64,000 bases of DNA from Squalus acanthias (taxonomy: Eukaryota), in contig CM059452.1 of assembly GCA_030390025.1 (NCBI GenBank), positions 6,510,001 to 6,574,000 on the forward strand, given 5' to 3'. Under the pieces are notes generated by a model. That model was not told the DNA's origin. It did no database searches and saw only the letters and a program-made list of their open reading frames with translations. The translations under genes were made by a program, and so were the position numbers. Within the stretch, counting starts at the first letter, position 1. Each line of letters opens with the position of its first letter. Of the stretch, positions 13,952 through 64,000 are shown in pieces.

Positions 13952-14016
13952 GCACTAACTGGAACTCTCAGTGTGGAGTTTTTGTACGGGATCCGCTATA
14001 TCTCTGCAGCAGTGTG

Positions 14017-16145: not shown

Positions 16146-16169
16146 ATCTCACAAAGCTACTGCTTCCCT

Positions 16170-18572: not shown

Positions 18573-18777
18573 GTGGATTTATTGTGAAACGCGATGCGCG
18601 CCTATACAGGTCAGGTTTACAATATTACGGCTGATTGTTTGATTGGCTAGTCTGGCGCCAGTTCACTGGTTGAACAGAAGAGATGACTACAATTTAACGC
18701 TCTTTGCTTCTTTATTTATTTCTTTCTCTCCTTTATTTCTCCCTTTCTTCCTCTCTTTCTCTATTTTATCACTCTTT

Positions 18778-19693
18778 AGTTGGGAAAGCAAGTTGTGAAG
18801 AGGTCACAAAGAATCTCCAAAGGGATATAGGCAGGTTAAGTGATTGGGCAAAAATTTGGCAGACGGAGTTTAATGTGGGAAAATATGAGGTTATCCACTT
18901 TGGTAGGAAAAATAAAAAGCAAATTATTATTTAAATGGAGAGAGATTACAAAATGCTGCAGTACAGAGGGATCTGGGGTTCCTTGTACATGAAACACAAA
19001 AAGTTAGCAGGCAGGTACAGCAAGTAATTAGGAAGGCAAATGGAATGATGGCCTTCATTACAAGGGGGTGGAGTATAAAAGTAGGGAAGTCTTGCTACAA
19101 CTGTAAAGGGCATTGGTGAGACCACACCTGGAGTACTGCGTACAGTTTTGGTCTCCTTATTTAAGGAAGGATATACTTGCATTGGTGGCAGTTCAGAGAA
19201 TGCTCACTAGGTTGATTACTGAGATGAAGGGGTTGTCTTATGAAGAAAGGTTGAGCAGGTTGGGCCTATACTTATTGGAGTTTAGAAGAATGAGTGGTGA
19301 TCTTATTGAAACATATAAGATACTGAGGGGGCTTGACAAGGTAGATGCAGAGAGGATGTTTCCCCTCGTGGGGGAATCTAGAACTCGGGGGCATAGTTTC
19401 AGAATAAGGGGTTGCCCATTTAAAACGGAGATGAGAAGTAATTTGTTCTCTCAGAGGGTCGTGAATCTTTGGAATTCTCTACCCCAGAGGGCTCTGGAGG
19501 CTGACTCATTGAATATATTTAAGGTGGAGATAGACTGATATTTTGAACGATAAGGGAGTCAAGGGTTATGGGGAGCGGGCAGGGAAGTGGAGTTGACGCC
19601 AAGATCAGATCAGCCATCATCTTATTGAATGGCGGAGCAGGCTCGAGGGGCAGAATGACCTACTCCTGCTCCTATTTCTTATGTTCTTATGTT
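18778..19693 (+). mobile_element. CR1 LINE, 5'-truncated
   Basis: LVRPHLEYCVQFWSPYLRKD..FSQRVVNLWNSLP; (TTCTTATG)n tail. Confidence 0.92.
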
Positions 19694-19816
19694 CTTTATT
19701 TATTTTTTCTCCTCTATTTCTCCCCTTCTTTCTTTCACTGATACACTGTTGGAGGGAGAGTGTATTGGAATATAATTTTTTGCTATCGTTGAACCTTCCC
19801 TGTATTGTATTCCCAG

Positions 19817-26768: not shown

Positions 26769-26769
26769 G

Positions 26770-33985: not shown

Positions 33986-33987
33986 AC

Positions 33988-42900: not shown

Positions 42901-45900
42901 TATAAACACAGACATGTTCCAGTGCAGTAATAACTGAGACAGGGCCTCGTGTAATATAAACAGTGACAAGGTCTAGTGCAGTAATAACTGAGACAGTGAC
43001 TAATTTAATATAAACAGAGACAGGGTCTAGTGTGATATAAACAGAGACAGGGTCTAGTGTAACATAAACAGGGACAGGGTCTAGTGTAATATAAACAGAG
43101 ACCGGGTCTAGTGTAATATAAACAGAGACAGGGTCCAGTTTAATATAAACAGATACAGGATCTAGTGTAATATAAACAGAGACAGAGTCTAGTGTAATAT
43201 GAACAGTGACTGGGTCGAATGCAGTAATAACTGAGACAGGCTCTAGTGTGTTATAAACAGAGACACGGTCTAGTGCAGTAATAACTGAGACAGCGCCTCG
43301 TGTACTATAAACAGAAACAGGTTCTAGTGCTGTAATAAATGAGACAGGAACTATTGTAATATTAGCAGTGATATGGTCTAGTGTAACGTAAACAGAGACA
43401 GTGTCTCGTGCAGTAACAACAGAGACAGAGTCTAGTGTAATATAAATAGGGACAGGTTCTAGTGCAGTAATAACTGAGACAGGGTCTAGTTTAATATAAA
43501 CACAGACATGTTCTAGTGCAGTAATAACTGAGACAGGGCCTCGTGTAATATAAACAGTGACAAGGTCTAGTGCAGTAATAACTGAGACAGTGACTAATTT
43601 AATATAAACAGAGACAGGGTTTGGTGTGATATAAACAGAGACAGGGTCTAGTGTAATATAAACAGAGACAGGGTCTAGTGTAATAAAAACAGAGACAGGG
43701 TCTAGTGTAACATAAACAGAGACAGGGTCTAGTGTAATATAAACAGAGACAGGGTCTAGAGTAATATAAACAGAGACAGGGTCTAGAGTAATATAAACAG
43801 AAACAAGGTCTACTGCAGTAATAACTGAGACAGGGCCTAGTGTAATATAAACAGACACAGAGTCTAGTGCAGTATAAACAGAGACAGGGTCCAGTGTAAC
43901 TTCAACAGAGACAGGATCTAGTGTAATATAAACAGAGACTGGGTCTCGTGTAATATAAACAGAGACAGGGTCCAGTATAATATAAACAGTGACAGGATCT
44001 AGTGTAATATAAACTGAGACAGGAACTTGTGTAATATAAACAGTGAAACGGTCTAGTGTAATATAAACGGAGACAGGGTCTAGTGTAATATAAATACAGA
44101 CAGGGTCTAGTGTAATATAAACAGAGACAGGGTCTAGTGTAAGATAAACAGAGATAGGAACTAGTGTAATATAAACAGAGAAACGGTCTAGTGTAATATA
44201 AACAGAGACAGGATCTAGTGTAATATAAAAATAGACATGATCTAGTGTAATATAAACTGAGTCAAGTTCTAGTGTAATATCAACAGAGACATGATCTAGT
44301 GCAATATAAACAGTGACAAGGTCTAGTGCAGTAATAACTGAAACAGTGTCTAATGTAATATAAACAGAGACAGGGTCTAGTGTAATATAAACAGAGACAG
44401 GGTCTAGTGTAATATAAACACAGACAGGGTCTAGTGTAATATAAACAGAGACAGGGTCTAATTTAACGTAAACAGAGACAGGGTCTAGTGTAATATAAAC
44501 AGAGACAGGGTTTAGAGTAATATAAACAGAAACAAGTTCTACCGCAGTAATAACTGAGACAGGGCCTAGTGTAATATAAACAGACACAGGGTCTAGTGCA
44601 ATATAAACAGAGACAGGGTCTCGTGTAATATAAACAGAGACAGGGTCCAGTATAATATAAACAGAGACAGGATCTAGTGTAATATAAACTGAGTCAGGAA
44701 CTAGTGTAATATCAACAGAGACCGGGTCGAGTGTAATGTGAACAGAGACAGGGTCTAGTGTAATATAAACAGAGACCGGGTCTAGTGTAATATAAACAGA
44801 GACAGGGTCCAGTTTAATATAAACAGAGACAGGATCTAGTGTAATATAAACAGAGACAGAATCTAGCGTAATATGAACAGTGACTGGGTCGAATGCAGTA
44901 ATAACTGAGACAGGCTCTAGTGTGTTATAAACAGAGACATGGTCTAGTGCAGTAATAACTGAGACAGGAACTATTGTAATATTAGCAGTGATATGGTCTA
45001 GTGTAATGTAAACAGAGACAGTGTCTCGAGCAGTAATAACTGAGACAGGGTCTAGTGTAATATAAACAGAGACAGGGTCTAGTGTAATATAAACAGAGAC
45101 AGGGTCTAGAGTAATATAAACAGAGACAGGGTCTAGAGTAATATAAACAGAAACAAGGTCTACTGCAGTAATAACTGAGACAGGGCCTAGTGTAATATAA
45201 ACAGACACAGAGTCTAGTGCAGTATAAACAGAGACAGGGTCCAGTGTAAATTCAACAGAGACAGGATCTAGTGTAATATAAACAGTGACAAGGTCTAGTG
45301 CAGTAATAACTGAGACAGTGACTAATTTAATATAAACAGAGACAGGGTCTAGTGTGATATAAACAGAGACAGGGTCTAGTGTAATATAAACACAGACAGG
45401 GTCTAGTGTAATATAAACAGAGACAGGGTCTAGTGTAATATAAACAGAGACAGGGTCTAGTGTAATATAAACAGAGACAGGGTCTAGAGTAATATAAACA
45501 GAAACAAGTTCTACCGCAGTAATAACTGAGACAGGGCCTAGTGTAATATAAACAGACACAGGGTCTAGTGCAATATAAACAGAGACAGGGTCTCGTGTAA
45601 TATAAACAGAGACAGGGTCCAGTATAATATAAACAGAGACAGGATCTAGTGTAATATAAACTGAGTCAGGAACTAATGTAATATCAACAGAGACCGGGTC
45701 GAGTGTAATGTGAACAGAGACAGGGTCTAGTGTAATATAAACAGAGACCGGGTCTAGTGTAATATAAACAGAGACAGGGTCCAGTTTAATATAAACAGAG
45801 ACAGGATCTAGTGTAATATAAACAGAGACAGAGTCTAGTGTAATATGAACAGTGACTGGGTCGAATGCAGTAATAACTGAGACAGGCTCTAGTGTGTTAT

Positions 45901-48900
45901 AAACAGAGACATGGTCTAGTGCAGTAATAACTGAGACAGGAACTATTGTAATATTAGCAGTGATATGGTCTAGTGTAATGTAAACAGAGACAGTGTCTCG
46001 AGCAGTAATAACTGAGACAGGGTCTAGTGTAATATAAATAGGGACAAGTTCTAGTGCAGTTAGAACTGAGACAGGGTCTAGTTTAATATAAACACAGACA
46101 GGTTCTAGTGCAGTAATAACTGAGACAGGGCCTCGTGTAATATAAACAGTGACAAGGTCTAGTGCAGTAATAACTGAGACAGTGTCTAATGTAATATAAA
46201 CAGAGACAGGGTCTAGTGTAATATTTAACAGAGACAGGGTCCAGTATAATATAAACAGTGACAGGATCTAGTGTAATATAAACTGAGAGAGGAACTTGTG
46301 TAATATGAACAGTGAAACGGTCTAGTGTAATATAAACGGAGACAGGGTCTAGTGTAATATAAATACAGACAGGGTCTAGTGTAATATAAATAGAGACAGG
46401 ATCTAGTGTAATATAAACAGAGACAGGGTCTAGTGTAATACAAACAGAGACAGGGTCTATTAAAATATAAACAGAGACAGGGTCTAGTGTAAGATAAACA
46501 GAGATAGGAACTAGTGTAATATAAACAGAGAAACGGTCTAGTGTAATATAAACAGAGACAGGATCTAGTGTAATATAAAAATAGACATGATCGAGTGTAA
46601 TATAAACTGAGTCAAGTTCTAGTGTAATATCAACAGAGACATGATCTAGTGCAATATAAACAGTGACAAGGTCTAGTGCAGTAATAACTGAAACAGTGTC
46701 TAATGTAATATAAACAGAGACAGGGTCTAGTGTAATATAAACAGAGACAGGGTCTAGTGTAATATAAACACAGACAGGGTCTAGTGTAATATAAACAGAG
46801 ACAGGGTCCAGTGTAATATAAACAGAGACAGGATCTAGTGTAATATAAACAGAGACAGAGTCTTGTGTAATATAAACAGTGACTGGGTCGAATGCAGTTA
46901 TAACTGAGACAGGCTCTAGTGTGTTATAAACAGAGACAGGGTCTAGTGCAGTAATAAATGAGACAGGGCCTCGTGTAATATAAACAGTGACAAGGTCTAG
47001 TGCAGAAATAACTGAGACAGTGTCTAATGTAATATGAACAGAGACAGGGTCTAGTGTAATATAAACAGAGACAGGGTCTAGTGTAATGTAAACAGAGACA
47101 GGGTCTAGTGTAATATAAGCAGAGACCGTGTCTAGTGTAATATAAACAGCGACAGGGTCCAGTGTAATATAAACAGAGACAGGATCTAGTGTAATATAAA
47201 CAGAGACAGAGTCTAGTGTAATATGAACAGTGACTGGGTCGAATGCAGTAATAACTGAGACAGGCTCTAGTGTGTTATAAACAGAGACAGGGTCTAGTGC
47301 AGTAATAACTGAGACAGGGCCTCGTGTAATATAAACGGAGACCTGGTCCAGTGCAGTAATAACTGAGACAGGGCCTCGTGTAATATAAACAGAAACAGGT
47401 TCTAGTGCACTAATAACTGAGATAGGAACTATTGTAATATTAGCAGTGATATGGTCTAGTGTAATGTAAACAGAGACAGGGTCTCGTGCAGTAATAACTG
47501 AGACAGGGTCTAGTTTAATATAAACACAGACAGGTTCTAGTGCAGTAAAAACTGAGACAGGGCCTCGTGTAATATAAACAGTGACAAGGTCTAGTGCAGT
47601 AATAACTGAGACAGCGCCTCGTGTAATATAAACAGAAACAGGTTCTAGTGCTGTAATAAATGAGACAGGAACTATTGTAATATTAGCAGTGATATGGTCT
47701 AGTGTAACGTAAACAGAGACAGGGTCTCGTGCAGTAATAACAGAGACAGGGTCTAGTGTAATATAAATAGGGACAGGTTCTAGTGCAGTAATAACTGAGA
47801 CAGGGTCTAGTTTAATATAAACACAGACATGTTCCAGTGCAGTAATAACTGAGACAGGGCCTCGTGTAATATAAACAGTGACAAGGTCTAGTGCAGTAAT
47901 AACTGAGACAGTGACTAATTTAATATAAACAGAGACAGGGTCTAGTGTGATATAAACAGAGACAGGGTCTAGTGTAATACAAACAGAGACAGGGTCTAGT
48001 GTAATATAAACAGAGACCGGGTCTAGTGTAATATAAACAGAGACAGGGTCCAGTTTAATATAAACAGATACAGGATCTAGTGTAATATAAACAGAGACAG
48101 AGTCTAGTGTAATATGAACAGTGACTGGGTCGAATGCAGTAATAACTGAGACAGGCTCTAGTGTGTTATAAACAGAGACACGGTCTAGTGCAGTAATAAC
48201 TGAGACACCGCCTCGTGTAATATAAACAGAAACAGGTTCTAGTGCTGTAATAAATGAGACAGGAACTATTGTAATATTAGCAGTGATATGGTCTAGTGTA
48301 ACGTAAACAGAGACAGGGTCTCGTGCAGTAATAACAGAGACAGAGTCTAGTGTAATATAAATAGGGACAGGTTCTAGTGCAGTAATAACTGAGACAGGGT
48401 CTAGTTTAATATAAACACAGACATGTTCTAGTGCAGTAATAACTGAGAAAGGGCCTCGTGTAATATAAACAGTGACAAGGTCTAGTGCAGTAATAACTGA
48501 GACAGTGACTAATTTTATATAAACAGAGACAGGGTCTAGTGTGATATAAACAGAGACAGGGTCTAGTGTAATATAAACAGAGACAGGGTCTAGTGTAATA
48601 TAAACAGAGACAGGGTCTAGTGTAATATAAACAGAGACAGGGTCTAGTGTAACTTCAACAGAGACAGGATCTAGTGTAATATAAACAGAGACTGGGTCTC
48701 GTGTAATATAAACAGAGACAGGGTCCAGTATAATATAAACAGTGACAGGATCTAGTGTAATATAAACTGAGACAGGAACTTGTGTAATATAAACAGTGAA
48801 ACGGTCTAGTGTAATATAAACGGAGACAGGGTCTAGTGTAATATAAATACAGACAGGGTCTAGTGTAATATAAACAGAGACAGGGTCTAGTGTAAGATAA

Positions 48901-51900
48901 ACAGAGATAGGAACTAGTGTAATATAAACAGAGAAACGGTCTAGTGTAATATAAACAGAGACAGGATCTAGTGTAATATAAAAATAGACATGATCTAGTG
49001 TAATATAAACTGAGTCAAGTTCTAGTGTAATATCAACAGAGACATGATCTAGTGCAATATAAACAGTGACAAGGTCTAGTGCAGTAATAACTGAAACAGT
49101 GTCTAATGTAATATAAACAGAGACAGGGTCTAGTGTAATATAAACAGAGACAGGGTCTAGTGTAATATAAACACAGACAGGGTCTAGTGTAATATAAACA
49201 GAGACAGGGTCTAATTTAACGTAAACAGAGACAGGGTCTAGTGTAATATAAACAGAGACAGGGTTTAGAGTAATATAAACAGAAACAAGTTCTACCGCAG
49301 TAATAACTGAGACAGGGCCTAGTGTAATATAAACAGACACAGGGTCTAGTGCAATATAAACAGAGACAGGGTCTCGTGTAATATAAACAGAGACAGGGTC
49401 CAGTATAATATAAACAGAGACAGGATCTAGTGTAATATAAACTGAGTCAGGAACTAGTGTAATATCAACAGAGACCGGGTCGAGTGTAATGTGAACAGAG
49501 ACAGGGTCTAGTGTAATATAAACAGAGACCGGGTCTAGTGTAATAAAAACAGAGACAGGGTCCAGTTTAATATAAACAGAGACAGGATCTAGTGTAATAT
49601 AAACAGAGACAGAATCTAGCGTATATGAACAGTGACTGGGTCGAATGCAGTAATAACTGAGACAGGCTCTAGTGTGTTATAAACAGAGACATGGTCTAGT
49701 GCAGTAATAACTGAGACAGGAACTATTGTAATATTAGCAGTGATATGGTCTAGTGTAATGTAAACAGAGACAGTGTCTCGAGCAGTAATAACTGAGACAG
49801 GGTCTAGTGTAATATAAACAGAGACAGGGTCTAGTGTAATATAAACAGAGACAGTGTCTAGAGTAATATAAACAGAGACAGGGTCTAGAGTAATATAAAC
49901 AGAAACAAGGTCTACTGCAGTAATAACTGAGACAGGGCCTAGTGTAATATAAACAGACACAGAGTCTAGTGCAGTATAAACAGAGACAGGGTCCAGTGTA
50001 AATTCAACAGAGACAGGATCTAGTGTAATATAAACAGTGACAAGGTCTAGTGCAGTAATAACTGAGACAGTGACTAATTTAATATAAACAGAGACAGGGT
50101 CTAGTGTGATATAAACAGAGACAGGGTCTAGTGTAATATAAACACAGACAGGGTCTAGTGTAATATAAACAGAGACAGGGTCTAGTGTAATATAAACAGA
50201 GACAGGGTCTAGTGTAATATAAACAGAGACAGGGTCTAGAGTAATATAAACAGAAACAAGTTCTACCGCAGTAATAACTGAGACAGGGCCTAGTGTAATA
50301 TAAACAGACACAGGGTCTAGTGCAATATAAACAGAGACAGGGTCTCGTGTAATATAAACAGAGACAGGGTCCAGTATAATATAAACAGAGACAGGATCTA
50401 GTGTAATATAAACTGAGTCAGGAACTAATGTAATATCAACAGAGACCGGGTCGAGTGTAATGTGAACAGAGACAGGGTCTAGTGTAATATAAACAGAGAC
50501 CGGGTCTAGTGTAATATAAACAGAGACAGGGTCCAGTTTAATATAAACAGAGACAGGATCTAGTGTAATATAAACAGAGACAGAGTCTAGTGTAATATGA
50601 ACAGTGACTGGGTCGAATGCAGTAATAACTGAGACAGGCTCTAGTGTGTTATAAACAGAGACATGGTCTAGTGCAGTAATAACTGAGACAGGAACTATTG
50701 TAATATTAGCAGTGATATGGTCTAGTGTAATGTAAACAGAGACAGTGTCTCGAGCAGTAATAACTGAGACAGGGTCTAGTGTAATATAAATAGGGACAAG
50801 TTCTAGTGCAGTTAGAACTGAGACAGGGTCTAGTTTAATATAAACACAGACAGGTTCTAGTGCAGTAATAACTGAGACAGGGCCTCGTGTAATATAAACA
50901 GTGACAAGGTCTAGTGCAGTAATAACTGAGACAGTGTCTAATGTAATATAAACAGAGACAGGGTCTAGTGTAATATTTAACAGAGACAGGGTCCAGTATA
51001 ATATAAACAGTGACAGGATCTAGTGTAATATAAACTGAGACAGGAACTTGTGTAATATGAACAGTGAAACGGTCTAGTGTAATATAAACGGAGACAGGGT
51101 CTAGTGTAATATAAATACAGACAGGGTCTAGTGTAATATAAATAGAGACAGGATCTAGTGTAATATAAACAGAGACAGGGTCTAGTGTAATACAAACAGA
51201 GACAGGGTCTATTAAAATATAAACAGAGACAGGGTCTAGTGTAAGATAAACAGAGATAGGAACTAGTGTAATATAAACAGAGAAACGGTCTAGTGTAATA
51301 TAAACAGAGACAGGATCCAGTGTAATATAAAAATAGACATGATCGAGTGTAATATAAACTGAGTCAAGTTCTAGTGTAATATCAACAGAGACATGATCTA
51401 GTGCAATATAAACAGTGACAAGGTCTAGTGCAGTAATAACTGAAACAGTGTCTAATGTAATATAAACAGAGACAGGGTCTAGTGTAATATAAACAGAGAC
51501 AGGGTCTAGTGTAATATAAACACAGACAGGGTCTAGTGTAATATAAACAGAGACAGGGTCCAGTGTAATATAAACAGAGACAGGATCTAGTGTAATATAA
51601 ACAGAGACAGAGTCTAGTGTAATATAAACAGTGACTGGGTCGAATGCAGTTATAACTGAGACAGGCTCTAGTGTGTTATAAACAGAGACAGGGTCTAGTG
51701 CAGTAATAAATGAGACAGGGCCTCGTGTAATATAAACAGTGACAAGGTCTAGTGCAGAAATAACTGAGACAGTGTCTAATGTAATATGAACAGAGACAGG
51801 GTCTAGTGTAATATAAACAGAGACAGGGTCTAGTGTAATGTAAACAGAGACAGGGTCTAGTGTAATATAAGCAGAGACCGTGTCTAGTGTAATATAAACA

Positions 51901-54004
51901 GCGACAGGGTCCAGTGTAATATAAACAGAGACAGGATCTAGTGTAATATAAACAGAGACAGAGTCTAGTGTAATATGAACAGTGACTGGGTCGAATGCAG
52001 TAATAACTGAGACAGGCTCTAGTGTGTTATAAACAGAGACAGGGTCTAGTGCAGTAATAACTGAGACAGGGCCTCGTGTAATATAAACGGAGACCTGGTC
52101 CAGTGCAGTAATAACTGAGACAGGGCCTCGTGTAATATAAACAGAAACAGGTTCTAGTGCACTAATAACTGAGATAGGAACTATTGTAATATTAGCAGTG
52201 ATATGGTCTAGTGTAATGTAAACAGAGACAGGGTCTCGTGCAGTAATAACTGAGACAGGGTCTAGTTTAATATAAACACAGACAGGTTCTAGTGCAGTAA
52301 AAACTGAGACAGGGCCTCGTGTAATATAAACAGTGACAAGGTCTAGTGCAGTAATAACTGAGACAGCGCCTCGTGTAATATAAACAGAAACAGGTTCTAG
52401 TGCTGTAATAAATGAGACAGGAACTATTGTAATATTAGCAGTGATATGGTCTAGTGTAACGTAAACAGAGACAGGGTCTCGTGCAGTAATAACAGAGACA
52501 GGGTCTAGTGTAATATAAATAGGGACAGGTTCTAGTGCAGTAATAACTGAGACAGGGTCTAGTTTAATATAAACACAGACATGTTCCAGTGCAGTAATAA
52601 CTGAGACAGGGCCTCGTGTAATATAAACAGTGACAAGGTCTAGTGCAGTAATAACTGAGACAGTGACTAATTTAATATAAACAGAGACAGGGTCTAGTGT
52701 GATATAAACAGAGACAGGGTCTAGTGTAATACAAACAGAGACAGGGTCTAGTGTAATATAAACAGAGACCGGGTCTAGTGTAATATAAACAGAGACAGGG
52801 TCCAGTTTAATATAAACAGATACAGGATCTAGTGTAATATAAACAGAGACAGAGTCTAGTGTAATATGAACAGTGACTGGGTCGAATGCAGTAATAACTG
52901 AGACAGGCTCTAGTGTGTTATAAACAGAGACACGGTCTAGTGCAGTAATAACTGAGACACCGCCTCGTGTAATATAAACAGAAACAGGTTCTAGTGCTGT
53001 AATAAATGAGACAGGAACTATTGTAATATTAGCAGTGATATGGTCTAGTGTAACGTAAACAGAGACAGGGTCTCGTGCAGTAATAACAGAGACAGAGTCT
53101 AGTGTAATATAAATAGGGACAGGTTCTAGTGCAGTAATAACTGAGACAGGGTCTAGTTTAATATAAACACAGACATGTTCTAGTGCAGTAATAACTGAGA
53201 AAGGGCCTCGTGTAATATAAACAGTGACAAGGTCTAGTGCAGTAATAACTGAGACAGTGACTAATTTTATATAAACAGAGACAGGGTCTAGTGTGATATA
53301 AACAGAGACAGGGTCTAGTGTAATATAAACAGAGACAGGGTCTAGTGTAATATAAACAGAGACAGGGTCTAGTGTAATATAAACAGAGACAGGGTCTAGT
53401 GTAATATAAACAGAGACAGGGTCTAGTGTAATATAAACAGAGACAGGGTCTAGAGTAATATAAACAGAAACAAGGTCTACTGCAGTAATAACTGAGACAG
53501 GGCCTAGTGTAATATAAACAGACAGAGTCTAGTGCAGTATAAACAGAGACAGGGTCCAGTGTAACTTCAACAGAGACAGGATCTAGTGTAATATAAACAG
53601 AGACTGGGTCTCGTGTAATATAAACAGAGACAGGGTCCAGTATAATATAAACAGAGAGAGGATTTAGCTTAAAATAAACTGAGACATGAACTAGTGTAAT
53701 ATAAGCAGAGAAACGGTCTAGTGTAATATAAACAGAGACAGGCTCTAGTGGAATATAAATACAGACAGGGTCTAGTGTAATATAAACAGAGACATGGTCT
53801 AGTGTAATATAAACAGAGACATGGTCTAGTGTAATATAAACAGAGACAGGGTCTATTATAATATAAAAAGAGACAGGATCTAGTGTAATATAAACAGAGA
53901 CATGGTCTCGTGTAATATAAACAGAGACACGGTCTATTATAATATAAACAGAGACAGGGTCTAGTGTAATATAAACAGAGATAGGGACTAGTGTAATATA
54001 AACT
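33988..54004 (+). repeat. 27-bp satellite array, about 20 kb (roughly 700 units), with higher-order repeats
   Basis: Consensus AGTGTAATATAAACAGAGACAGGGTCT; second subtype AGTGCAGTAATAACTGAGACAGGGTCT. Confidence 0.97.
35678..36418. mobile_element. 741-bp MITE inserted in the satellite, 3-bp TSD AAT (PIF/Harbinger-like)
   Basis: Ends GGGCCGAAAATTGATC..GATCAATTTCTGGGCC; AAT at 35675-35677 and 36419-36421; removing the element restores a satellite unit. Confidence 0.88.
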
Positions 54005-54784
54005 CACTGAACCTCCCTGTTCCCTCTCTCTGTCTGTCTCAGACAGCACCTAACTCACTGGACCTCCCTCCTCCCTCTCTCTGTCTCAGACAGCACCGAA
54101 CACACTGAAACTCCCTCCTCCCACATTAAACTCCATCTGCCAATTTTTTTGCCCAATCACTTAACCTGCCTATATCCCTTTGGAGATTCTTTGTGACCTC
54201 TTCACAACTTGCTTTCCCACCTAAAGAGGGATAACATAGAGAAAGAGAGGAAGAAAAGGAGAAATAAAGGAGAGAAAGAAAGAGAGAAAGAAGTAAAGAG
54301 CGTTAAATTGTAGTCATCTCTTCTGTTCAACCAGTGAACTGGCGCCAGACCAGCCAATCAAACAATCAGCCGTAATATTGTGAACCTGACCTGTATAGGC
54401 GCGCATCGCGTTTCACAGTAAATCCACGTTTCCGACATTACAACAGTGACTACACTTCAAAACTACTTCGTTGGCTGTAAAGCGTTTGGGACGTCCTGAG
54501 GTGGTGAAAAGCGCTGTATAAAGGCAAGTACTTCTTTCTATTTGAGCACAATATTGAGGTTTTCATCTACCGTATTATGATGGCATAATAAGTTGCGGCA
54601 TTTCCACAGAATTAAATATATCCGTTTCCTAGCCCTGGTTCTGCTATAGGCAGTAGAAGAGATTTTGCTCCAGCAAATTCTACATTTATTCCAAATGCTG
54701 AATATGAGGGTCGGTTCCCACCATGTGCTGAGTACCGAAAGATCTGATTTACTATTTCGTTACCCATAATGCAACAGAGTTAAA

Positions 54785-55030
54785 AACATAAGAACATAAG
54801 AAATAAGAGCAGGAGTGGGCCATACGTCCCCTCGAGCCTGCTCCGCCATTCAATAAGATCATGGCTGATCATCGGCCTCAACTGCACTTTCCTGCACTAT
54901 CCCCATATCCCTTGATTCCCCTAGAGTCCAAAAGTCTATCTATCTCAGACTTGAATATACTCAAAGACTCAGCATTCACAGCCCTCTGGGGCAAAGAGTA
55001 CAAAGGACTCTCTGAGTGAAGTTAAAAGAA
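54785..55030 (-). mobile_element. CR1 3' fragment
   Basis: Paralog of 17975-18215. Confidence 0.8.
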
Positions 55031-55204
55031 AGCTTAACATTTCTGGCATAACTCACGAAGTTTAACAATATAATTGCGGACTGTGCCACCGCCCTTTGCC
55101 CAAACTGTTCGTTTTCGGAACCGATTTGACTGTCACCCAATCTACCCAGGCTTTGTTCAGAGAGGAGATATTGTAGGAGAGCGGGGCCTTTCCCTCACAC
55201 TGTG

Positions 55205-55689
55205 GCCCACGGCACAGTAATAGATTCCGGTATCCGCGAACTCCGCCTGGCCGCTGCCGAGTGTGCTCAGACTTTGATCCCGGTCGGTGTGGATATTAAA
55301 CCGGCCTTGGTGGCGCTCTCCTTTGAATTCACAATGGATGTATCCCGGGGCCGTCGCTCACCAGTCGGCTGTACCAACAGATGCTGTCGGTCGTGCTGAA
55401 CCCTCACTGGATCCTGACGGGGTTTCCTTCCACTGCGAACTCTCAGGCAGGCTGAGAAATCTGGACCAAATTTGGAGCATCTTTGGACACAATTTACTAA
55501 TTACACAGAATGTACAGCACAGAAACAGTCGTGCGTCCCAACTGGTCAATACCTGTCATTATGCTCCACACGAGTCTCCTCCCAACCCCATTGACATTGA
55601 AGTACTGCAGTTTATAGAGCAGAAAGATTAAAACCAGATTGGTAATACTCACAGGATAATACGAGCAGGAAGAGGTGAATAGCCCCCAT
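55205..55689 (-). pseudogene. TCR V pseudogene (paralog of 17311)
   Basis: Donor intact, but two TGA stops (one at Cys23) and a 1-bp insertion; RSS 55166-55204. Confidence 0.88.
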
Positions 55690-56224
55690 GGCTGATTTAT
55701 ACTGTTTACTCAAGGCTCCGTCTCACTCTGTATTGAAGCTGGCGGTGAATATTGGAGGCTGCAACTTGCCCAGACTCAATGAGACCGCGCTCTCTACTTC
55801 TGTATAACTTCACAGCGACCCCTGCAATAGTACAGGCGATAGGAGATATCGCGATAGAAGGCCACGCTTTGTCATGTCAGTTTCGCTGTCAGTCATACGA
55901 GATCTGCTAGAGTTAATGTTAGTGACAGTCTCACATCTTCTGCTTCAGGGGAAACTCAATCGGTCATCAATATATCGATTACTTTGCCCAGCTGGCTCGT
56001 GTAATCAGAAGAATCACATTGGACCTGTGACAGTTCTCTGAGAAAACTGTTCATTTAGTCCAATTCTTCTCCTGTTTCAATATACACGTGAGTTTCTGTT
56101 TCAAATATTAACCTATTTACATTTTAAATGTTATTATGGTTTCGGCTTCCTCGCTGCTTTTGGTTGGGAATTTCATGTCCCAACAATCCTCTGGGTCAAA
56201 AAAGGAACCTGTGTTCTCAGGGTA

Positions 56225-57177
56225 GGGATTTTAGTACTGAGTACAGTAATAACAGGGAGACACCAGCAGAGGGAGATAGATAAAGGAGTGACAGAATTTA
56301 GTGATACAGAGACACGAATAGTGGGAGCTAGATAAATGTTTGACTGAGCACAGTTATACAGAGAAACCTCATCAGAAGGAGATTGATAAAGGTGTGACGG
56401 AGTACAGTGAGTGATACAGAGAGACACCAACAGAAAAGTTAAATAAAGGTGCAACCGGGTATTGTGATGCAGAGAGACACCAACAGAGGGAGATAGATAA
56501 AGGTGTGATTGAGTACAGTGATATAGAGAGACACCAACAGAAGGAGATAGATAAAGATGAGACTGAGTACAGTGAGTGATACAGAGAGACACCGACAGGG
56601 AGAGATAGATAAGGGTGTGACTGCGTACAGTGAGTGATAAGAGAGGGAGATAGATAAAGGTGAGACTGAGTACAGTTAGTGATAAGAGAGGGAGATAGAT
56701 AAAGGTGAGACTGAGTAGAGTTAGTGATACAGAGAGACAACAACAGAGGGAGATCGATAAAGGTGTGACTGAGTACAGTTAGTGATAAGAGAGGGAGATA
56801 GATAAAGGTGAGACTGAGTACAGTGAGTGATAAGAGAGGGAGATAGATAAAGGTGAGACTGAGTACAATTTGTGATACAGAGAGACAACAACAGAGGGAG
56901 ATCGATAAAGGTGTGACTAAGGAGAGTGAAGCAAGGAGACACCAACATAGGGAAGCAGCAGCTTTGTGAGATACACTGAGTGTGAGCGGCCCGGTGCAAG
57001 CTCAGAGACAGTGTGAGCTGGTGTCAGTGAGAAACACTGAGTGTGGGCGGCCCGGTGTGAGCTCAGAGACAGTGTGAGCTGGTGTCAGTGAGAAACACTG
57101 AGTGTGGGCGGCCCGGTGTGAGCTCAGAGACAGTGTGAGCTGGTGTCAGTGAGAAACACTGAGTGTGGGCGGCCCGG
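56225..57177. repeat. Two adjacent minisatellites (GA-rich degenerate; 61-bp x about 3)
   Basis: Paralogs of 15882-16775 with different copy numbers. Confidence 0.85.
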
Positions 57178-57355
57178 GTTGGGTAAACCCTGAGACACAG
57201 CTTGTTTAATTATTTCGACAGGAAGAAGCCTCTGATTTCAACATGAAGCGGGTGTTTGTCTCCTTGTTAATTATCCTGAATATAACATCCGTGTCCTGGT
57301 TCTAACCCGCACTCCGTGTACAATTCTTTCAGCAGCGTTTTCATCTGATCGGATA

Positions 57356-57690
57356 ATACTCCGGATTTACAGCGTTTCCCTGCTGATTTACACTCTGATC
57401 TGCACGGATGTGAGCGGTGAAGATGAGGTGAAGCAGTTCCCTCGGCGGGTGGTTGTTAGTGAAGAGAGAATCCTGTCCATCAACTGCTCCGCTACCGCTG
57501 AGTTTAACGTCCTGCGCTGGTACACACAGCACCCGGATCTGACCCTCCAGCATCTGGTGATGGCCACAAGCGGGGCCGATCAACACGGGAGGATCACTGC
57601 TTCAATCGGGGGAGGCAATAAACTCAGTGTCCCTGACTGTGAGAGACGCGCGAGTGACAGACAGCGCCACCTATCTCTGCGCCGTGAGCC
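57356..57690 (+). pseudogene. TCR V pseudogene (paralog of 15369-15702)
   Basis: ATG>ATA; 1-bp insertion near 57630; ends DSATYLCAVSP; RSS 57691-57729. Confidence 0.85.
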
Positions 57691-58463
57691 CACAGTGTAA
57701 CAAACAGGCGGAGAGTCCGCACAGAAACCTGCCCCGAGGGGGAGCGCCGCTCTGCTGTGTTTGGAGTAACGGGATTGGGAGGGGCCCGGTTATAATAATC
57801 GGAGGGCAGAGGGACTGAGCACAGAACAATGATGATATATTGAAGAGAGAGATTTAAAGAAAGTGAGAAATGAAGAGAGTTGGAAACATAGACAGAAGAA
57901 AAGAAAGAGAAAACACCAAAGAGAGAATGAGAGAAAGTGAGAAATAACGAGTGAGAAACACAAAGCTAAAACATGAGAGAAAGCCATAAAGAAAGAGATT
58001 CAGAAATAAAGTAAAATGTCCTTTCCTTTAAATTAATTCACATTTCCCTTCGCCCTATTTACAAAGCTGAATTGTCTGAAACAATACACATTGTCTCCCA
58101 ATAACAGGCCTCTGGAAACTGCCCCATCGATAAACTCACACTTTATTCTGTCCATTATCCTGACAGTGTGAAATTCCCAGAGTCACCGGCAGAGGGCGCC
58201 GTGGTCACATGATTCTTGTCGTTATCAACTGGAAATTATAGAGACAAATCTTGCGGTGACACTGCCCGCGGCAGCCCCGCCCACAGCTTCCGTTTGCTGC
58301 TCTCGCTCTGACCCGCCTTGTTTGCCCTGTGTTATTGGAGAGATTGCTGCCGCTGTTCCCTGTTTGGCATTGGTTGTTTCAGCAGTGCAGTGGCGCGGTG
58401 GTCTTTATTTCTGCTTTGACAGAGGATTTCCCGGACAGCAGAGTTATGGACCCAGGGAGTGTC

Positions 58464-58963
58464 ATGCGGAACCGTCTCGTACCGCTCCTCATCATTATAT
58501 TACTTGTCAGTAAGTATTTCCTTCCCAGTAAAAATGCATTCTTCCCCCGACTGCTGTAACCCAGGTGTTAGTATTGGTGAAATGATGGTGATGATGATGG
58601 TTATGTTAATTGAGGTGATGATGATGGTGAATATTACTATTATGTCATTTTAGAATGGAGCCACCAAGACACAGTGGAACAGCCGGTTCCTGAAATGACA
58701 GTTGAAGAGGAAAGTAATGTCACTCTAACCGGCACCGTGAAAACAAGCACTACTACCCCTACAGTGTTCTGGTACAGTCAACACCCCGGGCAGCCTCCAC
58801 AGTACGTGGTTTATATTATTGGAGGGATAGTAAACAGGAACCGCGACTTCACTGACATAGACCGATTCTCTTCTACATTTAATAAAACTACCAAGATTAC
58901 CGAGCTAACGATCAGCAACGCCCTGATCTCCGACACCGCCGTGTATTTCTGTGCCATGAGACC
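58464..58963 (+). CDS. TCR alpha/delta V gene segment, open but first Cys is Gly (leader 58464-58509, V exon 58654-58963)
   Basis: MRNRLVPLLIIILLV; VTLTGTVKT..DTAVYFCAMRP; RSS 58964-59003 CACACTG-24-ACAAAAACC. Confidence 0.85.
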
Positions 58964-60236
58964 CACACTGCTGCAGAGATACAGCGGATCCCGTACAAAA
59001 ACCCCACACTGAGAGTTCCAGTTAGTGCTCACCAGAGGGCGCTCTCACCCCGCTAAACAGAAGCGACAATTCAGACTCCACAGTGAGAGAGAGACAGAGA
59101 CCTGCGAAGAACTTGTGTCCGTTTCTTTACCAATAACCTGCTGCTGCTCTGTAGCACAAACACTTTACAACAAACTCAAATGGGTATATTGAATCGATGT
59201 TAAACAGCCTGCTTGTGGCGAGGTTACCGGGACCAGCTTCAACCGGTCATTATTTTCCAATATTACAAACCAAACTTTACATCCTCCTTCTGTCTTCCTT
59301 TTATTTATTTTTCGATATAATTATCTCTTATCTTTACATAGAGATTGAGGGAGACACACCGACACAGAGGCGGACCGAGCAATTTCCGCGGACCAAAGGT
59401 TTACATTATCTCTCTATACATTGGTGTAACTCTTGTGTAGGATGCTGCCTTCCCTATAAAAAGGAAATTGCAAAAGGGAATTTGATATATCCTTGAAAAG
59501 GAAACATTTTCAGGGCTATGGGGAAAGAGCAGGGCAGTGGTACTAACAGCACAGGCACAACGGGGCAAAGGTCACCTTCTGTGCTGTAAGATTCTATGTG
59601 TCTATGACATGAGCTCAGAAGGAGAGTTAAAGAGACACTGGGCGGTAACAGTGACCAAGGAGAGCAGTCAGCATGTAGTTTCTGGCTCCGTCCAATTGGT
59701 GGCGCCGTGGAGCGAATTTCCATAGTCTCTCGGTCGTTATTTGCTATATCAAAGATAATTTATTGTCCCCGGGTAACGCTAAGGGCAGCTCAACACTGTC
59801 TATGTAAAATGCCACTGCTACATGCAATGAACTAAATGACTAAGGAAGGGGGATAGTTTCTCTGCTCACTGAGTGCGGGGAATGGTAGATTGTTCCACGA
59901 AGATTTCCTCTGGTCTCCCTCTAAATGAAACTTAAATACGTTTTTTGTGAAAATCAGTTATTCAAAAAGGAAGAGTTTATGATTTCCCTAGAAATACCGA
60001 CCAGAGGAACCTCCATTGAAACATTTCGGATGTTGCTGCACACACAGTGACCAGAGCAATTCTCCCCGCTCCCTGATGGTGTGAAATTATCACAAACGGA
60101 TGTGACATAGTTGTAGGGTCACTTCCCTTTCTATGCCTGTCAAGGGGTTAAATTGCTCAGCCTGATCCGGTACTGGTGGCAGTTTTTGCTACAGTAGTGA
60201 AGGGGTCGATGCTCATATTGAGACCCGCGGAGAGCG

Positions 60237-60680
60237 ATGTGTTTCCCTGTTTATTTCAGTGTGGTGTTGGTGCTCTCTGTGCTGTGTAAGTACCTGTGGA
60301 ATGCGAGTACAAAACACACCAATAGGTCCGGTTAGAGGGGCGGATATTTATAAATGATCAATTTCTCTTCCAGCTAACAGCGTTGGCGGCGATTCCGTGC
60401 ACCAAGACTATTCGACCAGGACGGTGCGGGAAGGAGAAACGGTGACGTTGAATTGTAGTTTTACAACAACAGATACAAACCCTCGACTTTTCTGGTACCG
60501 GCAAATTTCCGGTCGGCCTCCGGTGAACGTGTTGCTTATCACCATATACGGCAGCTTCCCAGCCGACTTCGCCAAGGACCGTTTCACAGCAGAGCTGAGC
60601 GCAGAAGAGGGCGCGGTTCGGCTGACAGTTTCTGGGTTGGAGCTGTCAGACGGCGCCGTGTATTACTGCGCTCTGAGACC
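60237..60680 (+). CDS. TCR alpha/delta V gene segment, intact (leader 60237-60285, V exon 60374-60680)
   Basis: MCFPVYFSVVLVLSVL; DSVHQDY..LNCSFT..LFWYRQ..DGAVYYCALRP; RSS 60681-60719 CACAGCT-23-ACAAAAACT. Confidence 0.92.
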
Positions 60681-61426
60681 CACAGCTGCACAGCTCTGTG
60701 CTCGCCCTGTACAAAAACTGCAGCACACCGTGTTTAAATAGAACAGTGTGTGGCTGGAATACCCGCCTGTGATGACCTGATTAGGACAGTTACTGTCAGG
60801 ACAGAATATTCCGACAGGGCAGCTCCCAGCAGCTCTGAATAGAGGAGTATGGTTTTAGATTTCATTCACTCTATAATGAGGAATGAACAGGAGGAAACCC
60901 GCGCAGGTTTAATAGGCCAATGTACCGTGTAATGTCTGTTCAATTTCAAGTTTCCCTGCTCACTGCCGCTGTGTTTGTTTCATTTTCACACCCCTTAAAC
61001 CAGCACAGAAGTGTGCAGCTTTGCTTAGGTTTGGGATTATATTCAAAGGGCTCTGAACCTTCCCTTTTCTGAGTATTGGTTAATTTCTGTCGGTGTTTGA
61101 CGGCTCACAGAGAGCAATAATCTCATTCTTGTAACATTCGTGTTTACACCGAGGCTTCCACAGTGTGCGGCAGAGTTCTAGTGACATAGTGAACGCATTC
61201 TACAATAATGATTACTGATTGTACTAAACTAGCGATCAGACGAGATTTCCCGCTGTGTTTGGGATGTCGCTAACGCAGAGAGACCAGAGGAAATCTTCTC
61301 CTTGTGTGTCGCCAGCAAACCCGACCCCCGTCAACCACCTCAGTCTGAATAGTGACAGTGAGTCAAGTAAACTCAATATCTTCATTTATATTCAAATATT
61401 TTTGTCACTTTGAGGCGACTCTCAGC

Positions 61427-61860
61427 GTCAATAAAAGATCACGCTGTCTCTCCGGTCAATAAAAGATCAAGCTGTCTCTCGGGTCAATTAGAAATCAAGC
61501 TGTCTCTCCGGTCAATCAGAGATCAAGCTGTCTCTCGGGTCAATTAGAAATCAAGCTGTCTCTCAGGTCAATTGGAGATCAAGCAGTCTCTCAGGTCAAT
61601 TGGAGATCAAGCTGTCTCTCCGGTCAATTAGAGATCAAGCTGTCTCTCCGGTCAATTAGAGATCAAGCTGTCTCTCCGGTCAATTAGAGATCAAGCTGTC
61701 TCTCCGGTCAATTGGAGATCAAGCTGTCTCTCCGGTCAATTAGAGATCAAACTGTCTCTCAGGTCAATTGGAGATCAAACTGTCTCTGAAATCAATTGGA
61801 GATCAAGTTGTCTCTCAGGTCAATTAGAGATCAAGCTGTGTCTCGGGTCAATGAGAGATT
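61427..61860. repeat. 28-bp minisatellite (about 15 units)
   Basis: GAGATCAAGCTGTCTCTCCGGTCAATTA; GTCAAT/ATCAAT recurs every 28 bp from 61427 to 61847. Confidence 0.92.
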
Positions 61861-61943
61861 ACGGTGTATTTTTTTATTAATATTTCTCTCTCTGATCAGC
61901 AGAATGTGACGTTAGTGGATGATTCAGTACTCTGCAACAAACA

Positions 61944-61968
61944 CACCTGTGGTTAGGAAGTGACATCA
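61944..61968 (+). promoter_or_regulatory. V promoter composite: E-box/RUNX/ETS/CRE-like decamer
   Basis: CACCTG, TGTGGT, GGAAG and AGTGACATCA packed into 25 bp, about 155 bp upstream of the ATG. Confidence 0.65.
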
Positions 61969-62122
61969 GACTAGCCCCAGCCGGCGACCTCAGCTCTTTC
62001 TGATTGATGTTCTGCAGGAAGTGACATTCGACCAGCCCCAGCCGGTGATCTCAGCTCCTACTATTTGATGTTCTGCAGGTTTCTGAGACACAAAAAGTCC
62101 CTCGAATTGCGGAGCAGCAACA

Positions 62123-63200
62123 ATGCGGCTCCCTGTTCTCTCTGTGGTGTGGGTGACATTCATTTTCGGTCAGAATTTTATAACTTTTAAAACGGCTTAA
62201 TTCGTCGAGGAATAAAATTGAAAACCAGAGAAGTTACTTAAACTTGTGTCGAACCTTGGTTAGATCACACTTGGAGAGCTGTGCACAGTTCTGGTCTCCA
62301 TAATAAAAAAAGGATATAGGGACACTGGAGCAGGTGCAAAAAATTACAAGGATGATACCAGAACTGAGAGGTTGTAACTATGGAACAAGTTGGGGCTCTT
62401 TACTCTAAAAAGAGAAGACTGGGAGGTGACCTGATAGAGGTCTTCAAAATTATGAAGGTTTTTGATACGATAGACGTAGAGAAGAGGTTTCCACTTGGGG
62501 GGATTCCTAAACTAGGGACCATAAATATAAGATAATCACAAATACATCCAGTAGGGAATTCAGGAGAAACGTCTTTATCCAGAGAGTGGTGAGAATGTGG
62601 AACTCACTACCACAAGGAATAGTTGTAGCGAATGGCATAGAAGCATTTATGGGAAAGCTAGATAAGCACACGCGAGAGACAGGAATAGAAGGAAATGCTG
62701 ATAGTGTTAGAACAAGAGTGGTGGGAGGAGGCTCGTGTGGAGTATACACACGGACATAGACTAGTTGGCCGAATGACCTATTTCTATACAGTAAATTCTA
62801 TTCAATTTTATGTAAAACTCAATGCGAATTTTCACCGTCAGTTGGTTCAGTTTGAACCTTTAATGCATATTTTTCGCTTTCTTTCACCGTGTGTTCCAGA
62901 TCTGAGCGATGCAGATTCTGTTACTCAGCGGGAGTCCTCACTCACACAGACAGAGGGAGAAGATGCCACTTTAACCTGCACCTATTCCGCCAATGGTTAC
63001 GTATTCTGGTACCGCCAATACCCAGGCAGACAGCCTGAGTTTGCAGTCCAGAGGTACACGAGCGGCGGTTCTGAATATCAGCCGGATTTCGCTCAAGGCC
63101 GGTTTTCTGATACAGTCCAGCGGTCAGACAAGTTGTACCGATTGACCATCTCGGGGCTGCGGCTGACTGACACCGCGGTGTATTACTGTGCACTGAGGCT
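62123..63200 (+). CDS. TCR delta/alpha V gene segment, intact (leader 62123-62168, V exon 62900-63200)
   Basis: MRLPVLSVVWVTFIF; DSVTQRESS..TCTYSANGYVFWYRQ..DTAVYYCALRL; RSS 63201-63239 CACAGTG-23-CCAATAACT. Confidence 0.9.
62215..62810 (+). mobile_element. Degraded CR1 fragment in the leader intron
   Basis: CACACTTGGAG..CAGTTCTGGTCTCC..GGTGACCTGATAGAGGTCTTCAAAATTATG. Confidence 0.8.
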
Positions 63201-63902
63201 CACAGTGATGGGAACGAGCTAAAGCCTCGTCCAATAACTGCCGCAGGTTTCTGTGTCACAGCTGCTGCCTGTTGTGGGCTGTTTATCACAGCGGGTCAGA
63301 CACTGACACGTGACTACATTCCTGTGCGCACAGACCCCGAGCAGAATCCACATCAAACTCAGATAAAACCGTTCACATCGAATACTGATTCCGTCTGATT
63401 ATTGTATTAACTGTGTGAGGTCAGCATTGGCTGCTGTTTATTTGTGTATCTTTGAGAAACTCCAGTCCCATTGAGAATAAACACACCTGCGGGTGGCCTG
63501 TATCTGGTGCACCGCTGCTTCGGATATAACGCACGGCAAAGGGACAAATAATGATTGGTTTGAAATATCAGTCTACAGTGTAGACAGAGATAGGTCGGGT
63601 GGGGAAGATCCCAATAATTCTAATAACGTTATTAAAACTTTCTCAATATTATAAAGACTTGCCCATATATAAAGTAAGAATCTGCAGTAAAAGCAGGTTC
63701 CAGAAGGTCAAATTCAGAACAGGATAAGAAGCTAATGAACAAACATTAATCGAATAATAATCTCTAAGGACGGACATGGTGTGTACTTGGCTCCGTGCCA
63801 GATAGTCAGAGGACCGGCTGAATACAAAAGACTAACTGAGAAGGTATCAGAAGAGATGAAATAGTGAGATACAAACCGTGAAATGAAAAAAAATAATTAA
63901 AG

Positions 63903-64000
63903 ATTAAACTGGACCCTGTCTCTGTTTGTATTACACTAGGCCCTGTCTCAGTTATTAATGCACGAGACCCTGTCTCTATTTATATTGCTCTAGGTCCTGT
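63903..64000 (-). repeat. Start of a second 27-bp satellite array in opposite orientation
   Basis: GACCCTGTCTCTGTTTGTATTACACTAG is the reverse complement of the satellite unit; runs off the window. Confidence 0.9.

What the first reader, a model, noticed from the sequence alone, without database searches (positions are those of the whole stretch)
53900..64000. Five-V cassette bracketed by inverted copies of the 27-bp satellite: candidate satellite-driven invertible or duplicable V module
Seen: the duplicated cassette (54119-63833) begins about 115 bp after the 20-kb satellite ends. It ends about 70 bp before the same satellite restarts on the opposite strand (63903). The other copy (10330-18880) has no satellite at its ends and is inverted. 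Established: recombination between inverted repeats flips the DNA between them. Inference: the satellite may act as a substrate that captures, flips or amplifies blocks of TCR V genes, changing whether they rearrange by deletion or inversion. Only about 100 bp of the right array is visible, so its size is unknown.
Basis: partly seen in the sequence, partly recalled or inferred. Interest (0 to 1): 0.8.

Follow-up and report, generated by a model that had tools for sequence, protein, structure and literature searches.

The report
Shark TCR V duplicate between satellites
In a shark-type T-cell receptor locus, an old inverted copy of five V gene segments does sit between two opposite-facing satellite arrays, but the junctions look like scars of a past chromosome break rather than a working flip switch.

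Summary
Observation confirmed. 54119-63833 is an inverted duplicate of 10330-18880 (6.5% substitutions, patchy), carries five TCR alpha/delta-type V segments of a cartilaginous fish, and lies between a 20-kb 27-mer array (+) and a 27-mer array on the opposite strand (about 100 bp visible). Both ends within 120 bp of an array edge is unlikely by chance (rough post-hoc P 4e-4 to 2e-3).

The left junction is a non-homologous break: a LINE is cut at 54119 with 4-bp microhomology to an intervening 47-mer, and the array ends abruptly there. The visible right array is not homogenised with the left one (14 of 98 mismatches at best; longest exact match 29 bp). The other copy has no satellite, and 6 of 7 V orientation switches in the window do not span an array. 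Recombination between inverted arrays cannot duplicate the block or make these junctions.

Most likely: ordinary V 'homology-unit' duplication, then an inversion that broke inside the array and split it. At most 2 of the 5 V segments look intact. Recurrent flipping is possible but not shown.

The parts
33986..54003 (+). Main 27-bp tandem array (about 739 units, two unit subtypes). Degenerate left edge, abrupt consensus-like right end, near-perfect internal block duplications at lags 3186 and 4752/4753 bp
35678..36409 (.). About 730-bp insertion inside the array with about 20-bp imperfect terminal inverted repeats and an apparent 3-bp target duplication (MITE-like)
54001..54122 (+). 47-bp tandem repeat x2.5 between the 27-mer array and the cassette. 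Third unit cut short; shares 3 bp with the 27-mer end and 4 bp (TCCC) with the LINE
54119..63833 (.). Cassette copy 2: inverted duplicate of 10330-18880
54119..54221 (-). First 100 bp of a CR1-like LINE fragment, cut at 54119; the same insertion continues to 19696 in copy 1
   Evidence: RVT_1 match in paralogous LINE copies
55166..55500 (-). V-A with 23-bp RSS; stop codon and frameshift, pseudogene
57244..57729 (+). V-B with leader and 23-bp RSS; 1-nt frameshift near the 3' end in this copy (open in copy 1)
58464..59003 (+). V-C: open frame with leader, but first conserved Cys is Gly in both copies (Cys in paralogue V21829); 24-nt spacer; 67% identical to a Chiloscyllium V
60237..60719 (+). 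V-D: open frame with leader and both Cys; non-consensus heptamer CACAGCT; candidate functional
62123..63239 (+). V-E: open frame, leader 731 bp upstream of the V exon, weak nonamer; 71% identical to a Chiloscyllium V; candidate functional
61392..62533 (.). 1142 bp present only in copy 2; holds the 28-mer and 61-mer minisatellites and the V-E leader exon
63834..63902 (.). 69-bp spacer between the end of homology and the right array; no match longer than 15 bp elsewhere in the window
63894..64000 (-). Visible edge of the second 27-bp array, opposite strand, both unit subtypes, cut by the window end
10330..18880 (.). Cassette copy 1: same five V segments in opposite order and strand, no 27-mer at either end. 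V-D lost its YYC by a 34-bp deletion, V-E lost its leader, V-B is open
18781..19696 (+). Uncut CR1-like LINE fragment at the right end of copy 1, with 3' tail and similar pyrimidine-rich flanks on both sides
10210..10329 (+). CR1-like 3' tail that abuts the left end of copy 1

Best explanation
The five-V block is an ordinary multi-gene duplication ('homology unit') in a cartilaginous-fish TCR alpha/delta V region. The inverted arrays around copy 2 are most likely the result of a rearrangement, not its cause. Steps: (1) shown: a block of at least 8.5 kb was duplicated long enough ago to reach 5-6.5% divergence with separate gene losses in each copy; (2) shown: copy 2 was later broken inside a LINE and joined by short microhomology to tandem-repeat DNA at the end of the 20-kb array; (3) inferred: that break was one end of an inversion whose other end lay inside the compound satellite, so part of the array was carried round to the far side of the cassette and now faces the other way (array-splitting inversion); (4) shown: the left array has since grown by direct-repeat block duplication of 3-5 kb; (5) inferred: the two arrays are now a passive substrate for re-inversion, with no sign of recent use.
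For: The LINE is whole in copy 1 (18781-19696) and cut at 54119 in copy 2 with TCCC shared with the 47-mer. The left array's right end is consensus-like to the last unit (2-7 mismatches per 81 bp to the best other place in the array), while its left edge is degenerate (31 and 11). The right array's near edge looks like an old edge (9 and 10; 46 non-duplicated interior blocks have median 4, maximum 9). This asymmetry is what splitting predicts: a fresh cut on the left, the original edge on the right. One event explains the opposite orientation and both edge coincidences. Copy 1 has no satellite. Homology-unit duplication with hitch-hiking pseudogenes is the described mode of TRAV/TRDV expansion in cattle (PMC4289303, passages). 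Array-splitting inversions are described in deer mice, 3 of 9 satellite-flanked inversions (bioRxiv 10.1101/2024.05.29.596518, section 10).
Against: The reciprocal junction lies beyond 64000 and was not seen. A 47-mer remnant sits between the 27-mer and the LINE, so the model needs a compound array or an inserted patch. In its present orientation copy 2 has 4 of 5 V segments on the majority strand (15 of 22 in the window are +), so simple parsimony points to copy 1 as the inverted one. A plain deletion at the left junction plus an independent right array fits the same data. In the deer-mouse study the satellite-mediated class was the commoner one (6 of 9). No outgroup genome was available to polarise events.
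Confidence: 0.45

Rival explanations
1. Independent arrays plus a deletion. The 27-mer is a dispersed minisatellite family present in both orientations in this locus. A deletion joined the LINE to the 47-mer/27-mer block on the left. The right end of homology is set by retroelement insertion and loss in copy 1. The inverted orientation is a coin toss.
For: A CR1-like tail abuts copy 1 exactly at 10329, so copy 1 may be the derived side there. The window holds many unrelated minisatellites (22, 25, 28, 36, 45/54, 47, 61 bp). Simple tandem repeats are enriched on short shark chromosomes (bioRxiv 10.1101/2022.10.17.512540, passages). Copy 2 has the majority V orientation. The right array is diverged from the left.
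Against: Needs two separate coincidences with array edges. No third 27-mer cluster occurs in 44 kb of non-array DNA. Does not by itself explain the clean right end of the left array.
Confidence: 0.3
2. One reading: the two inverted arrays recombine and flip the 9.9-kb block, now or repeatedly, and the satellite promotes capture and amplification of V blocks.
For: Geometry allows inversion. The left array recombines actively with itself (blocks of 3.2 and 4.8 kb with 800-bp windows at 100% identity). Both cassette ends are near array edges. Inversions between inverted satellite arrays are documented in deer mice.
Against: Visible right units differ from the best left match at 14 of 98 bases, whereas 59 of 60 random interior 98-mers have a better match. 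Longest exact match is 29 bp, against nearly 100% identity over more than 100 kb in the deer-mouse example. Such crossovers cannot duplicate the block or cut the LINE. Copy 1 and the other inverted paralogues have no satellite. Only 100 bp of the right array is visible, and edges are the least homogenised part, so this test is weak.
Confidence: 0.12
3. The more likely recombination substrate is the cassette pair itself: two 8.5-kb inverted copies 35 kb apart exchange sequence by gene conversion and could invert the whole 18881-54118 interval, satellite included. Not exclusive of the best explanation.
For: Divergence is patchy, 2.0-17.6% per 500 columns (chi2 189, df 14), and stays uneven after the two most divergent zones are dropped (1.8-9.8%, chi2 68, df 12, p 8e-10). 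Perfect tracts of 173, 142, 136 and 127 bp exist, far longer than the 29 bp shared by the visible arrays.
Against: Patchiness could come from exchange with further copies outside the window or from selection. Perfect tracts are still short. No haplotype data.
Confidence: 0.2
4. Assembly artefact: the cassette orientation, the array length or the duplicate itself comes from misassembly or a misplaced haplotype.
For: An N run at 26973-27105 lies between the copies. Near-perfect 3-5 kb block repeats in the array could be over-assembled. A unique block between long inverted repeats is a classic place for orientation error (own knowledge).
Against: The copies differ by 6.5% plus large indels and different gene lesions. 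A paralogous segment crosses the gap collinearly with matching spacing (125 vs 136 bp). No N lies in 27106-64000.
Confidence: 0.06

Closest known systems
TRAV/TRDV homology-unit duplications (bovine TRA/TRD; PMC4289303, passages seen)
   Same: Multi-gene block with V segments of different families duplicated as a unit; shared and copy-specific lesions; later insertion/deletion.
   Different: Smaller (8.5-9.7 kb against 15-157 kb), inverted, in a cartilaginous fish, one copy bordered by satellite.
Satellite-splitting inversions (deer mouse 'centromere-splitting' class; bioRxiv 10.1101/2024.05.29.596518, section 10 seen)
   Same: Opposite-facing arrays at both ends of a segment, with one break inside an array.
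   Different: 10 kb rather than megabases; a 27-bp minisatellite-type unit with no evidence of centromeric role; ancestral state not polarised here.
Satellite-mediated (ectopic recombination) inversions (same study, 'centromere-mediated' class)
   Same: Inverted arrays flanking a segment.
   Different: There the arrays are nearly 100% identical over more than 100 kb and present in the ancestral haplotype. Here 86% over the visible 98 bp, and the ancestor is unknown.
Inverted V blocks in antigen-receptor loci (salmon TRAV block of 29 genes, PMC8559430 passages; mouse Igk versus Igh, PMC11153149 abstract)
   Same: V segments in both orientations, joined by deletion or inversion.
   Different: Orientation matters in Igh scanning but not in Igk or salmon TRAV. 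The shark TCR alpha/delta case is untested, and no J or C segment lies in the window to say which strand is deletional.

Membership tests
TCR alpha/delta V region, cartilaginous fish | V-set domain with leader exon and 3' RSS with 23-bp spacer | tested here: met
   Pfam V-set above cut-off for 7 of 8 V exons scanned (V-A copy 1 just below); 23/24-bp RSS; leader models
TCR alpha/delta V region, cartilaginous fish | Closest named relatives are chondrichthyan, with TRAV/TRDV names among vertebrate hits | tested here: met
   Best named hits of the 9-V profile are Chiloscyllium punctatum and Callorhinchus milii (unnamed Ig-like proteins); named hits lower down are TCR alpha/delta V; V-E 71%, V-C 67% to Chiloscyllium. 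Species not identified.
TCR alpha/delta V region, cartilaginous fish | Linkage to TRAJ/TRAC or TRDD/J/C | not testable with these tools
   No J or C segment was identified in the window; no eukaryotic genome collection available
Homology-unit (segmental) duplication | More than 1 kb, at least 90% identical, several genes plus intergenic DNA in the same order | tested here: met
   7548 aligned columns, 494 mismatches (93.5% identity), five V segments collinear
Inversion by recombination between inverted satellite arrays | Arrays in opposite orientation on both sides | tested here: met
Inversion by recombination between inverted satellite arrays | Long near-identical homology between the arrays | tested here: inconclusive
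   14 of 98 mismatches, longest exact match 29 bp, but only about 100 bp visible
Inversion by recombination between inverted satellite arrays | Breakpoints inside the arrays, flanking junctions intact | tested here: not met
   The one clear break is outside the 27-mer, inside a LINE, with 4-bp microhomology to a 47-mer
Inversion by recombination between inverted satellite arrays | Both arrays present in the ancestral haplotype; both orientations exist | not testable with these tools
   No outgroup genome, haplotypes or reads
Array-splitting inversion | One array end is a fresh cut, the other array keeps the old edge | tested here: met
   Edge profile, (small sample; also fits independent arrays)
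Array-splitting inversion | Reciprocal junction at the far end of the displaced array | not testable with these tools
   Lies beyond position 64000
RAG- or switch-type programmed substrate | RSS-like or AGCT-rich repeat units | tested here: not met
   Best of 788 CAC-started candidates in the arrays has 5 mismatches to the RSS consensus; AGCT 0.3 per kb against 4.2 outside (consensus motifs recalled)

The most novel reading that the evidence does not exclude
The right array is long and shares near-identical higher-order blocks with the 20-kb array, so the 9.9-kb block flips recurrently in the germline. Haplotypes would then differ in the orientation of two working V segments and of their CTCF-like sites, giving a heritable, satellite-controlled switch of TCR V usage in a shark-type locus.
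Probability: 0.08. Interest if true: 0.7.

Novelty: new member of a known kind. Interest (0 to 1): 0.3.

Why it matters
As it stands, it is a small, well-resolved example of how a shark-type TCR V region is remodelled: block duplication, gene loss split between copies, repeated inversion, and a break at a large tandem array. It offers one sharp test (the LINE remainder beyond the right array) of whether satellites here are cause or consequence. If recurrent flipping were shown, it would be a natural experiment on whether V orientation matters for RAG joining in the oldest lineage with TCRs. The ten literature searches (listings only) showed no title or abstract opening that describes a satellite-bracketed V block in a shark TCR locus, but the library lacks most subscription papers, including the nurse-shark TCR alpha/delta locus paper.

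Tried and rejected
Satellite remnants at the ends of copy 1: none. Homology resuming beyond the retroelements left of copy 1: the 69-bp spacer has no match there. The LINE tail left of the big array (33869-33986) as the orthologue of the tail at 10210-10329, which would tie copy 1 to the pre-inversion state: rejected, it is the least similar of 5 tails compared (78% against 81-86%). The LINE at 33438-33985 as the missing remainder of the cut LINE: wrong orientation and 76% identity. The array as cryptic RSS or switch-like repeat: rejected. The array as coding: stop-free frames up to 1301 codons exist on the minus strand only because the unit lacks stops in two frames; a protein search with 192 codons of it found 0 of 1824 candidates at E 1e-5, so its spread in other genomes stayed unchecked. 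A single-V protein search found nothing (0 of 4 candidates); the profile search worked. PDB and Atlas searches only confirmed a V-set domain. VGP preprint passages and the Science Advances paper passages held nothing on V orientation in shark TCR alpha/delta. No eukaryotic DNA collection could be searched, so genome-wide mapping of the 27-mer was not done. Supplements of the papers were not opened; tables of shark locus coordinates (PMC12227049 table S1) may bear on locus identity.
Full report
What the window is. It is a V-segment region of a TCR alpha/delta-type locus of a cartilaginous fish. A scan for CAC-started heptamers with 12 or 23 spacers outside the main array gave 22 rows, most with a 23/24-bp spacer directly after a YYC-type motif. 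Seven of 8 V exons scanned pass the Pfam V-set cut-off. A profile of 9 window V exons found 405 proteins among 1059 candidates; the best named ones are from Chiloscyllium punctatum and Callorhinchus milii, and named hits further down are TCR alpha/delta V. V-E and V-C are 71% and 67% identical to Chiloscyllium proteins. The species was not identified, and no J or C segment was identified in the window, so alpha/delta rests on similarity and on the 23-bp RSS.

The observation. 54119-63833 is an inverted duplicate of 10330-18880. It starts 115 bp after a 27-mer array (TRF 34068-54003, 739 copies; degenerate units back to 33986) and ends 69 bp before the same unit on the other strand. A both-strand scan finds no other cluster above shuffle level and none at the ends of copy 1. 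The edge coincidence is not easily chance: 0.8% of non-array bases lie within 120 bp of an array edge, giving about 4e-4 for 2 of 4 ends, and 55 of 24456 placements of an interval of this length do as well. These figures are post hoc and ignore that tandem arrays themselves tend to interrupt homology.

The duplicate is old and mosaic. Excluding the 45-61-bp minisatellites, 494 of 7548 aligned columns differ (6.5%), from 2.0% to 17.6% per 500 columns. Without the two most divergent zones it is 5.3% and still uneven (chi2 68, df 12). Large indels include 1142, 78 and 34 bp. Gene lesions are split. In copy 2, V-A has a stop and frameshift, V-B a 1-nt frameshift, V-C lacks its first Cys (as in copy 1), and V-D and V-E are open with leaders but have a non-consensus heptamer or nonamer. 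In copy 1, V-B is open, V-D has lost its YYC, V-E has lost its leader with the 1142-bp segment, and V-A has no leader model. This is the pattern described for bovine TRAV/TRDV homology units (PMC4289303, passages). It also argues against a duplicated haplotig.

Left junction. The 27-mer does not touch the cassette. The array stops mid-unit and passes, over 3 shared bases, into a 47-mer x2.5. The third 47-mer unit is cut and joined over 4 shared bases to a CR1-like LINE (family name recalled; RVT_1 match in paralogous copies). The first 100 bp of that LINE are shared with copy 1, where it continues without a break to its 3' tail at 19696 and has similar pyrimidine-rich flanks on both sides. So copy 2 is the derived side here, and the join is non-homologous.

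Right junction. Homology stops where copy 1 has a 120-bp CR1-like 3' tail ending at 10329. The 69 bp that follow in copy 2 match nothing else in the window. Which copy is derived at this end cannot be told.

The arrays. The left array contains near-perfect direct block duplications at lags of 3186 and 4752/4753 bp and others, so it recombines with itself, unless partly over-assembled. The visible right array has both unit subtypes but its best ungapped match in the left array has 14 of 98 mismatches; 59 of 60 random interior 98-mers do better. The longest exact match is 29 bp. Per 81 bp, the right edge has 9-10 mismatches to its best match, against a median of 4 and a maximum of 9 for 46 interior blocks outside the duplicated part. 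The left array's left edge has 31 and 11, its right end 2-7. The left array thus looks cut on the side facing the cassette, and the right array looks like an old edge or a separate array. The array is not RSS-like or switch-like.

Other rearrangements. Of 22 V segments or fragments, 15 are + and 7 are -, with 7 switches of orientation; only one (32816 to 55204) spans an array, and one is internal to the cassette and shared by both copies (list compiled by hand). Eight other non-transposon paralogous block pairs that I picked from the 55 rows of 60 bp or more printed, five of them inverted, have all ends at least 5.3 kb from an array edge. They are older (67-89%), so arrays could have been lost, but inversion in this locus clearly does not need a visible satellite. 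The N run at 26973-27105 lies between the two copies; a paralogous segment crosses it collinearly with matching spacing, which supports the join.

Mechanism. Recombination between inverted arrays would flip the block but leave both junctions as they were, and it cannot make a second copy (established NAHR logic). It therefore explains neither the duplicate nor the cut LINE. One inversion with a break inside the compound array and a second break in the LINE explains the cut LINE, the clean array end, the opposite orientation and both edge coincidences. It predicts the LINE remainder at the far end of the right array. Against it: the 47-mer patch needs an extra assumption, and copy 2 now has the majority orientation. 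I put it at 0.45, independent arrays plus a deletion at 0.3, and actual satellite-mediated flipping at 0.12. Separately, the two cassette copies, with perfect tracts up to 173 bp, are a better visible substrate for exchange than the arrays. The deer-mouse preprint names both classes, splitting (3 of 9) and mediated (6 of 9), the latter with nearly 100% identity over more than 100 kb in its example (section 10).

Would orientation matter? In mouse, RAG scanning of Igh uses only convergent RSSs, while Igk uses both orientations (PMC11153149, abstract). In Atlantic salmon, TRAV genes of the inverted block are used at comparable frequency, 13 of 14 functional ones expressed (PMC8559430, passages). 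The window already mixes both strands. A flip would affect at most two plausible genes with weak RSSs, plus two or three CTCF-like sites (motif recalled).

Literature seen: passages of PMC12227049, PMC5931798, bioRxiv 10.1101/2022.10.17.512540, PMC4289303, PMC8559430, PMC13320880; passages and section 10 of bioRxiv 10.1101/2024.05.29.596518; abstract of PMC11153149. The nurse-shark locus paper was not held. No supplements were read.

Verdict. A real, non-chance arrangement with a mostly ordinary explanation: a V homology unit with a rearrangement scar at a satellite. Interest 0.3. The flip-switch reading remains open only through the unseen right array.

Noticed in passing
window 37118-53532: The 27-mer array has nested near-perfect block duplications (lags 972, 3186, 3294, 4752/3, 4915, 8101, 9667 bp), i.e. 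recent higher-order amplification or over-assembly.
   Followed up: partly
window 35678-36409: MITE-like insertion with imperfect terminal inverted repeats and an apparent 3-bp target duplication inside the array; elements with similar ends appear near 4565-5747 and 4891-6172.
   Followed up: partly
window 848, 6228, 13951, 14795, 20699, 21893, 26687, 58186, 59029 and three weaker sites: CTCF-like motifs (12 found, 0-6 in 20 shuffles), several just downstream of V RSSs and pointing with the V; they invert with the blocks.
   Followed up: partly
window 20617-21700 / 26769-24553: Older fold-back inverted duplication (85%) with a 2.9-kb spacer and LINE insertions, no satellite.
   Followed up: partly
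window 712-3716 / 26551-28697: Older direct paralogous block that crosses the 133-N gap; the V exon is missing from the second copy while its RSS side remains.
   Followed up: partly
window 10900-11041 / 63123-63264, 14874-15046 / 57935-58107, 18194-18329 / 54670-54805: Perfect tracts of 136-173 bp between the cassette copies, one covering the V-E 3' end and RSS: possible gene conversion.
   Followed up: partly
window 33914-54003, minus strand: Stop-free frames up to 1301 codons formed by the 27-mer; a likely source of spurious gene models.
   Followed up: yes
window 15882-16764, 56236-57177, 9081-9160, 61419-61859, 8232-8658, 30096-30200: Several unrelated minisatellites (45/54, 61, 28, 25, 22, 36 bp); the 61-mer array lies just upstream of the V-B leader in both copies and differs in copy number.
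   Followed up: no
window 1-33000: Most other V segments are broken too; of those modelled, 7873, 21829 and 29705 look intact.
   Followed up: partly
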